This document shows, one piece after another, positions 2,355 through 44,573 of a DNA stretch of 64,000 nt. The stretch's first letter is position 1; each line of letters begins with the position of its first letter. This DNA comes from Eledone cirrhosa (Eukaryota), in contig OZ024748.1 in assembly GCA_964016885.1 (NCBI GenBank), positions 58,652,001 to 58,716,000 on the forward strand, in the 5' to 3' direction. Below the pieces are notes generated by a model. The model was not told the origin of the DNA and made no database searches. It saw only the letters and a program-made list of their open reading frames with translations. The position numbers were made by a program, and so were the translations under genes.

Positions 2355-2383
2355 GTAGTTCCACAATAGTTAGTTCACCATAC

Positions 2384-2422
2384 TGGGAACAATTGTTTCA
2401 CATTGTTCGGATCTTCAGCCTT
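2384..2422 (-). ncRNA. Degenerate minimal hammerhead ribozyme (mirror copy)
   Basis: Minus strand aagg-CTGAAGA-tccgaacaatgt-GAAAC-AATT-GTT-ccca; core intact, stems I and II weak. Confidence 0.4.
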
Positions 2423-2479
2423 GTCTAAGTAGAGTTGTAGGTACAGTTGCTTTTCCTCTTCCGTACAATGTTATTTAGA

Positions 2480-2520
2480 CAGAGCTGATGATCCGAATAA
2501 TGTGAAACAATTGTTCTCGG
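2480..2520 (+). ncRNA. Minimal type I hammerhead ribozyme, partly decayed
   Basis: cagag-CTGATGA(2485-2491)-tccgaataatgt-GAAAC-AATT-GTT-ctcgg; gag/ctc stem I, palindromic stem III; same family as 44502-44541. Confidence 0.55.
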
Positions 2521-2754
2521 TATGGTGAACTAATTGTTGTGGAACTACTTCTACCAAACTCGTCCCATAGACTGAGTGCTCTACTAATACGGATATAACC
2601 CACCAGTGTTCTACCAATATATATATATATATATATATATATATATATATATATATATATATATATATATATAACGAAGGAGGTGTGGTAAGGAATCAGA
2701 TGGACCATAACGCACCAGAGTACTGAATACTTAGGGTAGTAGAGTGGGTAATAG

Positions 2755-2862
2755 GAAAACGTTTGACCCCGACAGCAGAGCTCAAGCCGTTACGACGGCT
2801 ATTTCAGTCCAGAAATAGCCGTCGAAACGGCTTGAGCTCTGCCGTCGGAGTCAAACTTTTTC
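2755..2862. repeat. Fold-back element in (TA)n; same family at 25404-25640
   Basis: gtttgaccccgacagcagagctcaagccgt...acggcttgagctctgccgtcggagtcaaac; 2672-2732 is the reverse complement of ~25595-25655. Confidence 0.9.
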
Positions 2863-41019: not shown

Positions 41020-42335
41020 TATAATGTCTATATATAATGTGTGTGTGTATATATAATGTGTGTGTGTGTATATATAATGTATGTGTGTGTGTATATATAA
41101 TGTATATGTGTGTGTGTATATATAATGTATATGTGTGTGTGTATATAATGTATATGTGTGTGTGTATATAATGTATATGTGTGTGTGTATATAATGTATA
41201 TGTGTGTGTATATAATATATGTGTGTGTGTATATAATATATGTGTATGTATATAATATATATATGTGTATGTATATAATATATATATGTGTATGTATATA
41301 TGTGTATGTATATATGTGTATGTATATATGTGTGTGTATATATGTGTGTGTATATATGTGTGTGTATATATGTGTGTGTATATATGTGTATGTATATATG
41401 CGTGTGTATGTATGCGTGTGTATGTATGTGTATGTATATATGCGTGTGTCTGTATATAGTATACGTGTGTGTGTGTGTCTGTATATATGTGTCTGTATAT
41501 ATGTGTGTGTATATATGTGTGTGTATATATGTGTGTGTATATATGTGTGTGTATATATGTGTGTGTATATATGTGTCTGTATATATGTGTGTGTATATAT
41601 GTGTCTGTGTATATTATGTGTGTGTATATTATGTGTCTGTATATTGTGTCTGTATATAATGTGTGTGTATATATGTGTCTGTATATAATGTGTGTATATG
41701 TGTCTGAATATAATGTGTGTGTATATATGTGTGTGTATATTATGTGTCTGTATATATGTGTGTGTATATTATGTGTCTGTATATAATGTGTCTGTATATA
41801 TGTGTGTGTATATAATGTGTGTGTATATAATGTGTGTGTATATAATGTGTGTGTATATAATGTGTGTGTATATAATGTGTGTGTATATAATGTGTGTGTA
41901 TATATGTGTTTGTATATAATGTGTGTGTATATATGTGTTTGTATATAATGTGTGTGTATATATGTGTCTGTATATAATGTGTGTGTATATATATATCTGT
42001 ATATAATGTGTGTATATATATATATGTGTGTGTGTGTGTGTATTATGTGTGTGTGTGTGTATTATGTGTGTGTGTGTATTATGTGTGTGTGTGTGTGTGT
42101 ATTATGTGTGTGTGTGTATTATGTGTGTGTGTGTGTGTGTATTATATGTGTGCGTGTGTGTGTATTGTGTGTGTGTGTAGTATATATATATGTGTGTGTG
42201 TGTGTATATTATATATATATGTGTGTGTGTGTGTGTGTGTATATTATATATATGTGTGTGTGTGTGTGTGTGTATATTATATATATATATATATGTGTGT
42301 GTGTGTATATTATATATATATATGTACGTATGTGT
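41020..42335. repeat. TG/TA-based minisatellite (12-18-bp units)
   Basis: Read directly, e.g. (gtgtgtgtatataat)n. Confidence 0.97.
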
Positions 42336-42855
42336 ATACATTACAATATAGCTATCTATATCAACATGACATATGACATCTAACACGATTTATTTAACAT
42401 CACGTATCTTTAATGTAATTATCTTCAACTGTGATTAACCTCAAACTCACTTAACCCATAATTAGAAATGTATTACTTGGAAACACACATCAGACTGCTT
42501 TATTATTCAGTTGCATATAACGTTTCTCGCGGGCTTGTACTGATGGAAATACTTTTAAAAACTTTGGTTTTAGGCATTACAAATTTAATGACTTTTTTAA
42601 TCATATAAAAGACAATGTTTGTACAGTTCAGTCTCCGTTTCCTGCCATGTTCCATAGCTGTGAAATATGTACAAACACAGACACATATGTTTGCATGTAT
42701 AGTGAGTCTTGTTACTCTGAAGTTTCGCCTCTTTCTTAGAGTCATAAGAGACACCTCACTATTCAGCCCTAAAATAAGGAATATTTAAACTATTCTTAAG
42801 TATTGTATATTCTTATCTCTCGGTCGTGAACTAGATACGAATATATATATATATA

Positions 42856-43525
42856 TATAAGGAATTTATATCTAGTAACATTTATATACACACAGATGCA
42901 TATCAATGCTAGCAAATATATAGGTTTTGTCTTATTAACAATGTGGTTCAATGCATGGGGTTGCAGAACAATAATATGAGAACATAAAATAAGAAAATTA
43001 TAAAATTAACTTACTTACTAAAAAAATCACTTCCAACTAATTAGTTTCTGGAATGGAGTAAATATATTTTCCGAAGAAACATATAGAAAATCATTCCGTC
43101 ATCAGGAAAGTCTTTTTCCGTATAGGTCTCCAGGCATAGCGAGGACACTGGAAACTTATTAAAAAAATAATTCAGTGGAATGGAAATAGCGATGCGTGGA
43201 CTGGATTCCAAGCCATTGAGAAAATCACTGCCTCTATGTCCGTGGCAAATTCAAAAAGAATCAATCACGTGACATCTAGGTCAATCAGTGGAAAGCGAGT
43301 GGTTATTAAGACAGCGGCTAGCTTACTACCATAGTAGCAGTCATGGCCAAATATTGCTCGACAAATGAATTGGAGATAATTATAAGGAATTTATATCTAG
43401 TAACATTTATATACACACAGATGCATATCAATGCTAGCAAATATATAGGTTTTGTCTTATTAACAATTTACTCCATTCCAGAAACTAATTTTTTAGTAAG
43501 TTAATTTTATAATTTTCTTATTTTA
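42856..43525. repeat. Direct plus inverted repeat module with a truncated hammerhead
   Basis: 87-bp identical direct repeat at 42856-42942 and 43381-43467; 43467-43525 is an inverted copy of ~42985-43062 with small deletions; bounded by (TA)n. Confidence 0.9.
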
Positions 43526-44501
43526 CGTCTCTTATATATATATATATATATATATATATATATTTATTAAAATAACAGATGCTCTACAGTTCTTATATAT
43601 TTGATATATATTTATCCTTATCGAGCCCTCTTTGGATTTTAGTCTTCAAATTTATTATTATTACTATATATATGTATATATGGAATTTACTGTCGAACGG
43701 CAAGAGTTCATCCATCGGGCTCAGATTCTAAGATATATATATATATATATATATATTAGTAGTACAGATTAAAGTTTAAACAGGAGAGGGCAAACTGTCC
43801 AAGTATCGGTCGATCTCTGATAGGTTTGTGGTGGAGCCTGTAGCGATGGAGTCTTCAAGGCGTTCTTGAACCCCGGAGCACTGCTATCGTGTTGGAGTTG
43901 GCGGCCCCGCGAGGAGATATAGTGGCTATTCAACCATTATATTCTCCATCCTGTCAGCCGAGACCAAGCGGTAAAGAGTAAAATAGTTGGAGGTGGAGGA
44001 TACACGTTCGGATGGACAAACACACAAAATAGATGAAAAGTGTGTACATAGAACGAAAGAAAACGTATTTCAAGTTTACCACTATAGGCGTCTTGTTGTT
44101 AGGTAGTTGATGCAGCATAACATATCATTATAAAAAGTCACCTTAGCTTAGAATCTATTACGAAGTTTATATCTTCCACAATTCGAAAAGGGAAATGACT
44201 GAGCGACTGAAATACGACTGGAGCAGATGTAGAGATATAAGTTCGTGACAAATATCTTCCGGGATTTAGTTTTATTTCCAGATAGTACCGGTTTCAACAT
44301 ACTGAATATGTTCTTTGGAAAGATATGTTTGTATTTATTTGTGTCTATACATGGGCATATTATCTGGGCATATATATATATATATATATACATATTTGTA
44401 TTATATATATGTGTGTGTGTATGTAATATATATATATTGTGTGTGCGTGTGTATACGTATGTATATATATATATATATGTATATATATATATACACACAT
44501 C

Positions 44502-44541
44502 CCGAGCTGAAGATCCGCGAAGGTGAAACAATTGTTCTCGG
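44502..44541 (+). ncRNA. Minimal type I hammerhead ribozyme
   Basis: ccgag-CTGAAGA-t-cc-gcgaa-gg-t-GAAAC-AATT-GTT-ctcgg; perfect 5-bp stem I, palindromic stem III, GUU triplet. Confidence 0.75.
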
Positions 44542-44573
44542 CATGGTGAACTAACTGTTGTGTAATCACTTCT

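What the first reader, a model, noticed from the sequence alone, without database searches (positions are those of the whole stretch)
2355..44573. Dispersed set of unrelated hammerhead-ribozyme mini-elements colonising (TA)n tracts
Seen in sequence: CUGANGA...GAAA...UH cores with properly paired stem I at 15482, 26351, 32669 and 44502. Partial cores occur at 2384/2480, 9082/9205, 17461 and 43055. Apart from the 2.4 kb/44.5 kb pair, their stems share no sequence, so they represent about seven separate families in 42 kb. Nearly all are short non-coding modules bounded by TA runs and arranged as fold-backs or direct repeats. Established: Penelope-like elements carry hammerheads in their pLTRs, insert with tandem or inverted ends, and some target microsatellites. 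Inference: these are either heavily truncated Penelope ends or non-autonomous retrozyme-like RNAs mobilised by Penelope RT. The density and diversity here look unannotated.
Basis: partly seen in the sequence, partly recalled or inferred. Interest (0 to 1): 0.85.

Follow-up and report, generated by a model that had tools for sequence, protein, structure and literature searches.

The report
Penelope stubs and retrozymes carrying hammerheads
The scattered hammerhead-ribozyme motifs are real and are the normal cargo of Penelope-like retrotransposons: most are short leftover ends of protein-coding elements, three are protein-free tandem units of the kind called retrozymes, and the whole genome is this crowded with them, likely holding a few hundred thousand.

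Summary
Observation confirmed. A strict type I hammerhead scan finds 5 motifs in the window (15482, 26351, 32669, 43029 on -, 44502 on +) against 0.19 in shuffles. Each belongs to a repeat family with many genomic copies, and homologous motifs show compensatory stem changes. Five of the seven reported families (2.4/44.5 kb, 9 kb, 15.5 kb, 17.4 kb, 32.7 kb) are truncated or folded-back 3' ends of protein-coding Penelope-like elements; three of them match the (TA)n-targeting Hydra clade in their C-terminal motifs. Two (26.3 kb, 489 bp; 43 kb, 525 bp) plus one missed (25.9 kb, ~330 bp) are ORF-less, circularly permuted tandem units: non-LTR retrozymes, autonomous partner not found. The window is not special: 40 evenly spaced 10-kb stretches hold 44 motifs (7 per 64 kb), implying roughly 1.4-6 x 10^5 in the genome and at least about 28 families. 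Both element types are described in print. Less expected: the load, and three ORF-linked families that spread with altered cores (U4A, U4C, GAAC). No cleavage or expression data. The scan noted similar TA-targeted tandem units in other genomes.

The parts
2061..2233 (.). Family K stub (fold-back, core deleted here); 3' end of a Hydra-like element whose family core is CAGAAGA (U4A)
2351..2616 (.). Family A head-to-head fold-back; cores 2388-2418 (-) and 2485-2515 (+), stem I weakened in both; right arm carries a longer tail
2674..2862 (.). Family H fold-back stub; holds GAAA and stem III but not the 5' half of the core (family core mostly TTGANAA, U3-A8)
8882..9490 (.). Family E fold-back; cores 9087-9120 (-) and 9210-9243 (+); right arm 34 nt longer (tail)
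15153..15397 (+). Family M stub (missed by reader); CTGATGA at 15232 with GAAC in place of GAAA, as in 7 of 7 other copies displayed
15437..15763 (-). Family C stub with inverted tail; complete hammerhead 15482-15548
17232..17642 (.). Family F fold-back; minimal hammerheads 17345-17371 (-) and 17466-17494 (+) with the family-typical CCGAAGA (U4C) core
21047..21190 (-). Family K stub
25396..25658 (.). Family H fold-back stub
25659..26229 (+). Family J, ORF-less ~330-bp unit with part of a second unit and an inverted arm (missed by reader); U3-A8 hammerhead 26006-26056
26266..26757 (-). Family B, ORF-less 489-bp unit with a short terminal repeat; complete hammerhead 26351-26431
32504..34819 (-). 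Family D, 5'-truncated Hydra-like element with broken RT/endonuclease frame and 3' UTR; complete hammerhead 32669-32802 with a 97-nt stem II region
38716..38808 (.). Family I fold-back stub (missed by reader); core at 38758-38796 (+); autonomy not determined
42860..43532 (-). Family G, ORF-less 525-bp unit plus 85 bp of the next unit and an inverted arm; complete hammerhead 43029-43111; 98-99% identical to best genomic copies
43560..43666 (+). Family K stub (tail only)
44497..44573 (+). Family A stub; complete core and stem I 44502-44541, stem II of 2 bp behind a U-U pair

Best explanation
The motifs are type I hammerheads carried near the 3' ends of Penelope-like retroelements, and the modules are insertions into TA microsatellites of two kinds: truncated ends of protein-coding elements and protein-free tandem units (retrozymes) that likely borrow the same enzyme. 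Shown: families A, C, D, E, F (and H, K, M) continue upstream into RT/GIY-YIG-type frames in other copies; B, G and J do not, and instead run head-to-tail into themselves; 3' ends are fixed and abut TA runs; fold-backs are head-to-head, often with a tail on one arm only. Inferred: the element protein nicks both strands of a (TA)n tract and primes reverse transcription at each end from one of two sites a short way downstream of the hammerhead; early termination leaves 100-500-bp stubs that almost always include the ribozyme, and two primings give the fold-backs. Inferred for B, G, J: tandem copies are transcribed, hammerheads cleave (probably as dimers through palindromic stem III in G and J), monomers circularise, and reverse transcription around the circle gives more-than-unit, circularly permuted insertions. 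In the stubs the hammerhead is probably a passenger with no role at the locus.
For: Motif excess over shuffles. Same-strand Penelope-type frame within 1.5 kb upstream in 21 of 30 D, 12 of 24 E, 7 of 24 F, 4 of 30 A, 3 of 24 H loci (raw counts, which include a few neighbouring elements such as L034 for A and L101 for D); for C an inverted frame in 5 of 30, with L196 and L197 sharing ORF, long 3' UTR and hammerhead end; K in L322 and L312; M in 3 of 16. Pfam RVT_1 and GIY-YIG for the F-linked frames, RVT_1 below cut-off for E. A, C, K, H frames carry CxCX5C and D a modified form; A, C, D, K frames match (E<=1e-22) intact 714-aa frames with RWK and DKT found in the genome, the published marks of Hydra elements, almost all of which insert in (TA)n. 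Head-to-tail 5' junctions: 48 of 163 for B+G+J vs 20 of 579 for the ORF-linked families. G array of at least 19 units (L211); longest Met frame in units 30-49 aa. TA run within 25 nt of the 3' anchor: A 17/23, B 15/24, C 23/28, D 22/24, E 16/21, F 10/23, G 20/22, H 22/23 vs 8.8% background. Covariation among 8 C-like motifs: 97.9% of cells paired, 6 pairs changed on both sides, best slid control 63%; J and its sister L232 differ by a U3-A8 / C3-G8 swap with changed stems, and B and G sisters change stems in step.
Against: No cleavage, expression or circle data. The genome search scores only the 40 best candidates, so a rare ORF-bearing partner of B, G or J could be missed. B, G, J units show no significant similarity to the ends of five full-length Hydra elements or seven ORF-linked families (best E 0.007), so descent from and mobilisation by a given element is not shown. 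Pfam gave no family for the A, C, D frames or four homologues; their assignment rests on motifs. The ORF link for A, H, C, K, M rests on 2-5 loci each. MFE folding of single window copies often does not give the hammerhead fold. In print only 1 of 9 predicted Xenopus retrozyme dimers cleaved, and hammerhead mutants did not affect insertion by a Penelope protein in vitro.
Confidence: 0.85

Rival explanations
1. Every family, B, G and J included, is just the pseudo-LTR end of an autonomous Penelope-like element whose long copies were not sampled.
For: Only top-scoring copies were fetched; A shows a contiguous ORF link in about 3 of 30 loci, so links can be rare. B's stem III form resembles that of two full-length Hydra families. 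One B copy (L282) is joined directly to an A-family frame fragment.
Against: B, G, J loci reach a full unit and then repeat it; no recurrent ORF-linked upstream sequence in 30+30 B loci (about half the same places), 24 G and 24 J loci; frames near B lie across TA or CA runs or belong to other families.
Confidence: 0.08
2. B, G and J are satellites that spread by DNA-level recombination, and their hammerheads are inert relics.
For: Long arrays exist (L211 at least 19 units; L232 11 units); arrays can grow by unequal crossover (argued).
Against: Copies are dispersed over many contigs, 5'-truncated, often inverted, with 3' ends at TA runs; sister units keep the fold through compensatory changes, including the 3-8 swap.
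Confidence: 0.05
3. The motifs are chance matches in AT-rich, hairpin-rich DNA.
For: CTGATGA alone is at chance frequency. One recurrent 'family' in the clustering (16 contexts, L108 type) looks like a chance match on the opposite strand of D.
Against: 5 vs 0.19 in the window, 44 vs 0-3 in 400 kb; covariation; control cores G3-C8 and U4G found 0 times and A3-U8 at shuffle level.
Confidence: 0.01

Closest known systems
Minimal type I hammerheads of metazoan Penelope-like elements (Cervera and de la Pena 2014, PMC4209133)
   Same: Type I topology, palindromic stem III, extra base before stem II in some, U3-A8 variant, many unrelated families per genome, mostly single motifs from truncated elements, opposite-strand pairs 100-700 bp apart.
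   Different: Several here have much longer stem II regions (30-115 nt) and full stem III; estimated number is far above the 2,000-9,000 per genome reported there (different descriptors); family-wide U4A, U4C and GAAC cores.
Hydra clade of Penelope-like elements (Craig et al. 2021, PMC8557442)
   Same: RWK, DKT, CxCX5C linker, CxxC and CxH around the endonuclease, canonical hammerheads, (TA)n insertion, inverted 5'-truncated arms and one-sided tails.
   Different: Described as a small set of families in aquatic invertebrates; here very abundant (97,653 first-look candidates for one homologue). E and F are not Hydra (no match to the 714-aa frame at E<=1e-5 for E; F has GPKF/DKG and Pfam GIY-YIG).
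Animal non-LTR retrozymes (Cervera and de la Pena 2020, PMC7229834; Li, Clavereau and Pollet 2026 preprint 10.64898/2026.07.22.740005)
   Same: ORF-less tandem units with one type I hammerhead each, low GC, monomers to long arrays, coexisting with autonomous elements.
   Different: B and G (489, 525 bp) are above the 150-450 bp range of the 2020 paper but within the 51-972 bp of the preprint; here they end in TA tracts and form fold-backs; circles and cleavage untested; no matching pseudo-LTR found.

Membership tests
Type I hammerhead ribozyme | CUGANGA...GAAA...UH core with stems I-III | tested here: met
   5 complete in window plus one U3-A8; not met in the partial copies or in families F, K, M
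Type I hammerhead ribozyme | Covariation of stems among homologues | tested here: met
   (8 related motifs, 97.9% paired, 6 two-sided pairs; relatives are not independent and the structure was set by hand)
Type I hammerhead ribozyme | Site-specific self-cleavage | not testable with these tools
   no bench or RNA data
Endonuclease-bearing Penelope-like element (A, C, D, E, F, H, K, M) | RT plus C-terminal GIY-YIG frame upstream of the hammerhead end | tested here: met
   Pfam support only for F and, below cut-off, E
Endonuclease-bearing Penelope-like element (A, C, D, E, F, H, K, M) | Inverted 5'-truncated arms and one-sided tail | tested here: met
Hydra clade (A, C, D, H, K) | CxCX5C linker and CxxC/CxH motifs | tested here: met
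   in D the first CxC is altered
Hydra clade (A, C, D, H, K) | N-terminal RWK and DKT motifs | tested here: inconclusive
   present in related full-length genomic families; no N-terminus recovered for the window's own families
Hydra clade (A, C, D, H, K) | Placement in an RT phylogeny with reference elements | not tested
   no named references were held
Non-LTR retrozyme (B, G, J) | Tandem units each with a type I hammerhead, no ORF | tested here: met
   ORF length tested on B, G and the J sister L232; J itself seen as more-than-unit copies, its sister as an 11-unit array
Non-LTR retrozyme (B, G, J) | No autonomous element with the same unit | tested here: inconclusive
   none in sampled loci; search not exhaustive
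Non-LTR retrozyme (B, G, J) | Expressed as unit-length linear and circular RNA | not testable with these tools
   no RNA run available

The most novel reading that the evidence does not exclude
This genome may carry one of the heaviest hammerhead loads known (about 110 intact motifs per Mb, against about 4.5 per Mb for the 126,247 reported in axolotl), built by Hydra-clade elements and their retrozyme parasites, and it offers a natural experiment on what the ribozyme is for: all ORF-less tandem families seen keep a canonical or compensated core, whereas three of eight ORF-linked families multiplied with U4A, U4C or GAAC cores, either because autonomous elements do not need cleavage or because their protein rescues a new class of variant cores.
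Probability: 0.3. Interest if true: 0.6.

Novelty: new member of a known kind. Interest (0 to 1): 0.36.

Why it matters
The role of hammerheads in Penelope transposition is open: they are conserved, yet dispensable for insertion in the one in vitro system. A genome with young, near-identical retrozyme arrays (G), intact autonomous frames and families fixed for variant cores supplies ready substrates to test who needs cleavage and which enzyme moves the retrozymes. It also shows that a standard Rfam scan misses a motif class present at hundreds of thousands of copies. The window itself is ordinary repeat landscape.

Tried and rejected
Rfam scan: no hammerhead family, only hairpin and microsatellite matches to miRNA models. 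Pfam: nothing for the window's RT fragment, the A, C, D frames or four homologues. Sequencing runs: no RNA holder listed for G (3 runs, one study); no reads were laid. Search for a partner of B, G, J among five full-length Hydra ends and seven ORF-linked families: nothing significant. Hetero-family junctions as a pointer to partners: none for B, G, J by the systematic screen, 9 rows among the ORF-linked families; one by eye (L282). Circular MFE of units gave z -3.1 (G), -3.2 (B), -5.7 (J sister) against 30 crude doublet shuffles: weak, not relied on. First pair count used a mis-registered structure and is discarded in favour. The K query was mis-oriented and included a TA run; its loci were still usable. 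Family I: no upstream frame in 24 loci, but the query selected fold-backs, so undecided. Local enrichment of the window: rejected (47% of six-stretch draws reach 5). The contrast in core integrity (0 of 3 ORF-less vs 3 of 8 ORF-linked families altered) is too small to test. The host animal was not identified; paper searches with a guessed group are not evidence about it.
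Full report
Observation. I scanned both strands for CTGANGA, up to 150 nt, GAAA, a paired stem III, UH and at least 5 bp of stem I. Five motifs pass: 15482-15548, 26351-26431, 32669-32802 and 43029-43111 on the minus strand and 44502-44541 on plus. One hundred shuffles in 500-bp blocks gave a mean of 0.19 and never more than 2. 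The heptamer alone is at chance. Rfam lists no hammerhead among 87 matches. A scan with variant cores adds a U3-A8 motif at 26006-26056 (on its own that variant scan is not above shuffles in the window, 2 vs mean 0.65, but 23 of 25 cores in the family read TTGATAA).

Families. Each module was searched in the own genome (3.0 Gb). All have many copies (first-look candidates 766-2,900; only 40 scored per search). Mapping a library of natural copies back on the window gives 16 insertions of 11 families between 2.0 and 44.6 kb.

Class 1, truncated ends of protein-coding elements. For D, coverage among 30 loci decays steadily upstream of a fixed 3' end and 21 of 30 have a same-strand frame upstream; E 12 of 24, F 7 of 24, A 4 of 30, H 3 of 24 (raw counts including a few neighbours of other families). 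For C the frame is inverted in 5 of 30 loci; longer stretches show these are head-to-head insertions, and L196 and L197 share frame, long 3' UTR and hammerhead end at 86-94% identity. K and M link likewise in 2 and 3 loci. F-linked frames hit Pfam RVT_1 and GIY-YIG, the E-linked RT hits RVT_1 below cut-off; A, C and D frames hit nothing. Their ten database homologues are unnamed 340-753-aa proteins; the three I read carry RWK, DK[S/T] and CxC motifs. Searching the genome with one of them found 63 scored matches, many with uninterrupted 714-784-aa frames, bearing RMRWKA, DKT, CxCX5C and hammerheads in their terminal repeats; A, C, D and K frames match them at E<=1e-22. These are the marks given for the Hydra clade, almost all of whose families insert in (TA)n (PMC8557442, section 11 read whole; passages). 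None of the 30 full-length loci belonged to a window family.

Class 2, ORF-less tandem units. B (489 bp), G (525 bp) and J (about 330 bp) never showed a recurrent upstream frame; upstream of the hammerhead they run back into their own tail. Head-to-tail 5' junctions make up 48 of 163 junctions for B, G, J and 20 of 579 for the ORF-linked families (loci overlap, so the counts are not independent). G fills a 10-kb stretch with at least 19 units at 96-98% identity. The window copies of all three are slightly more than one unit long. Sister units occur in the random stretches: L234 for B (73% over the hammerhead region), L250 for G (76%), L232 for J (63%, 11-unit array), each with stems changed in step, and J/L232 swap U3-A8 for C3-G8. 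This matches non-LTR retrozymes (PMC7229834, parts 2-3 of 6 read; preprint 10.64898/2026.07.22.740005, parts 1-3 of 5 read, supplements not seen). Against: no partner found, searches not exhaustive, and the preprint saw cleavage in 1 of 9 tested dimers.

Target and structure. A TA run starts within 25 nt of the 3' anchor in 145 of 188 copies over eight families against 8.8% of random positions; most misses continue into the next unit or a longer tail. Fold-backs are head-to-head; in the window the right arms of A and E are 62 and 34 nt longer than the left. Two internal start sites and cleavage of both strands at AT-rich DNA were shown for a lizard Penelope protein, and hammerhead mutations did not affect insertion (PMC11167929, parts 1-2 of 4 read). 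I infer the same mechanism here; whether TA tracts precede insertion was not tested.

Covariation. Eight related C-like motifs (the window copy and seven from random stretches, chosen by their shared stem I) pair in 97.9% of 144 cells, with 6 of 18 pairs changed on both sides; slid controls reach at most 63%. The count of two-sided pairs alone was matched by 77 of 500 shuffles, and relatives are not independent.

Density. Forty 10-kb stretches evenly spaced on the ten first contigs hold 44 strict motifs, against 0-3 in ten shuffles: 7 per 64 kb, 5.4 with one array counted once; bootstrap 1.4-6.0 x 10^5 for the genome (small contigs not sampled). 28 of 44 lie within 200 bp of a TA run against 30% of random points. 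Clustering 370 motif contexts from the loci held at that point gave 87 clusters, 30 with two or more members, 15 of 30 with a perfectly palindromic stem III; at least one, probably two or three, are chance matches. Published counts: 126,247 in axolotl, over 6,000 in 16 families in a coral, about 5,000 in a mussel, 4,000 and 9,000 minimal motifs in coelacanth and frog (PMC4209133, parts 1-2 of 4 read); descriptors differ, so the comparison is rough.

Variant cores. F reads CCGAAGA in 22 of 31 contexts, K reads CAGAAGA in 58 of 84 (the rest largely truncation junctions and single changes), H reads TTGANAA in 15 of 20; M has GAAC for GAAA in 7 of 7 copies displayed. U3-A8 is known from schistosome elements and U4C from a viroid, with lower activity (PMC3088659, section 8 and passages). 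I found no report of a family-wide U4A core in two searches or in two of three supplements of PMC4209133; Lunse et al. on Penelope hammerhead variants was not held (title seen only in a reference list) and figure supplements S6-S7 of PMC3088659 were not seen, so it may be in print. Searches gave no paper on this particular load; the host is unidentified, so this is weak.

Verdict. Real, well above chance, and explained by two known kinds of element. New members of known kinds; the scale and the variant cores are the points worth following.

Noticed in passing
L200:1250-1580, L322, L312; window 2061-2233, 21047-21190, 43560-43666: Family K has a full type I architecture (5-bp stem I, 3-bp stem II, 5-bp stem III) but a fixed CAGAAGA (U4A) core; 6 insertions in 400 kb of random sequence.
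   Followed up: partly
window 15153-15397; L416-L422: Family M has GAAC in place of GAAA followed by a 12-nt palindrome, a possible C15.1-G16.1 variant or a dead core.
   Followed up: partly
L282 (oriented 576-1500), L198:4267-5077, L183:189-333: Head-to-head junctions between different families (A with B, A with H, A with D) without a TA run between them; may reflect two primings on different RNAs at one site.
   Followed up: partly
L337-L366: Intact 713-719-aa Hydra-like frames in many near-identical copies, suggesting recently active autonomous families; a third 784-aa family was listed but not fetched.
   Followed up: partly
L222 (C2:80000001-80010000): Four hammerheads each occur twice on opposite strands, suggesting a multi-kilobase inverted duplication.
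   Followed up: no
window 47374-48469 (-): Two frames that read like a decayed hAT/SPIN-type DNA transposase (recalled resemblance; Pfam gave no family).
   Followed up: no
window 46500-64000: Only 3 TA runs of five or more units against 107 in the first 46.5 kb, and no hammerhead or family stub; contains a 24-bp CT-rich array (56864-57982) and a 27-bp array (59276-59442).
   Followed up: no
window 38351-38647: A TA-bounded module with one 72% match among fetched loci (L210); no hammerhead seen.
   Followed up: no
window 12670-12790, 13150-13500, 22020-22240, 34820-35340, 62512-62947: Copies of a further dispersed repeat that reads like a tRNA-derived SINE family (by eye; not tested).
   Followed up: no
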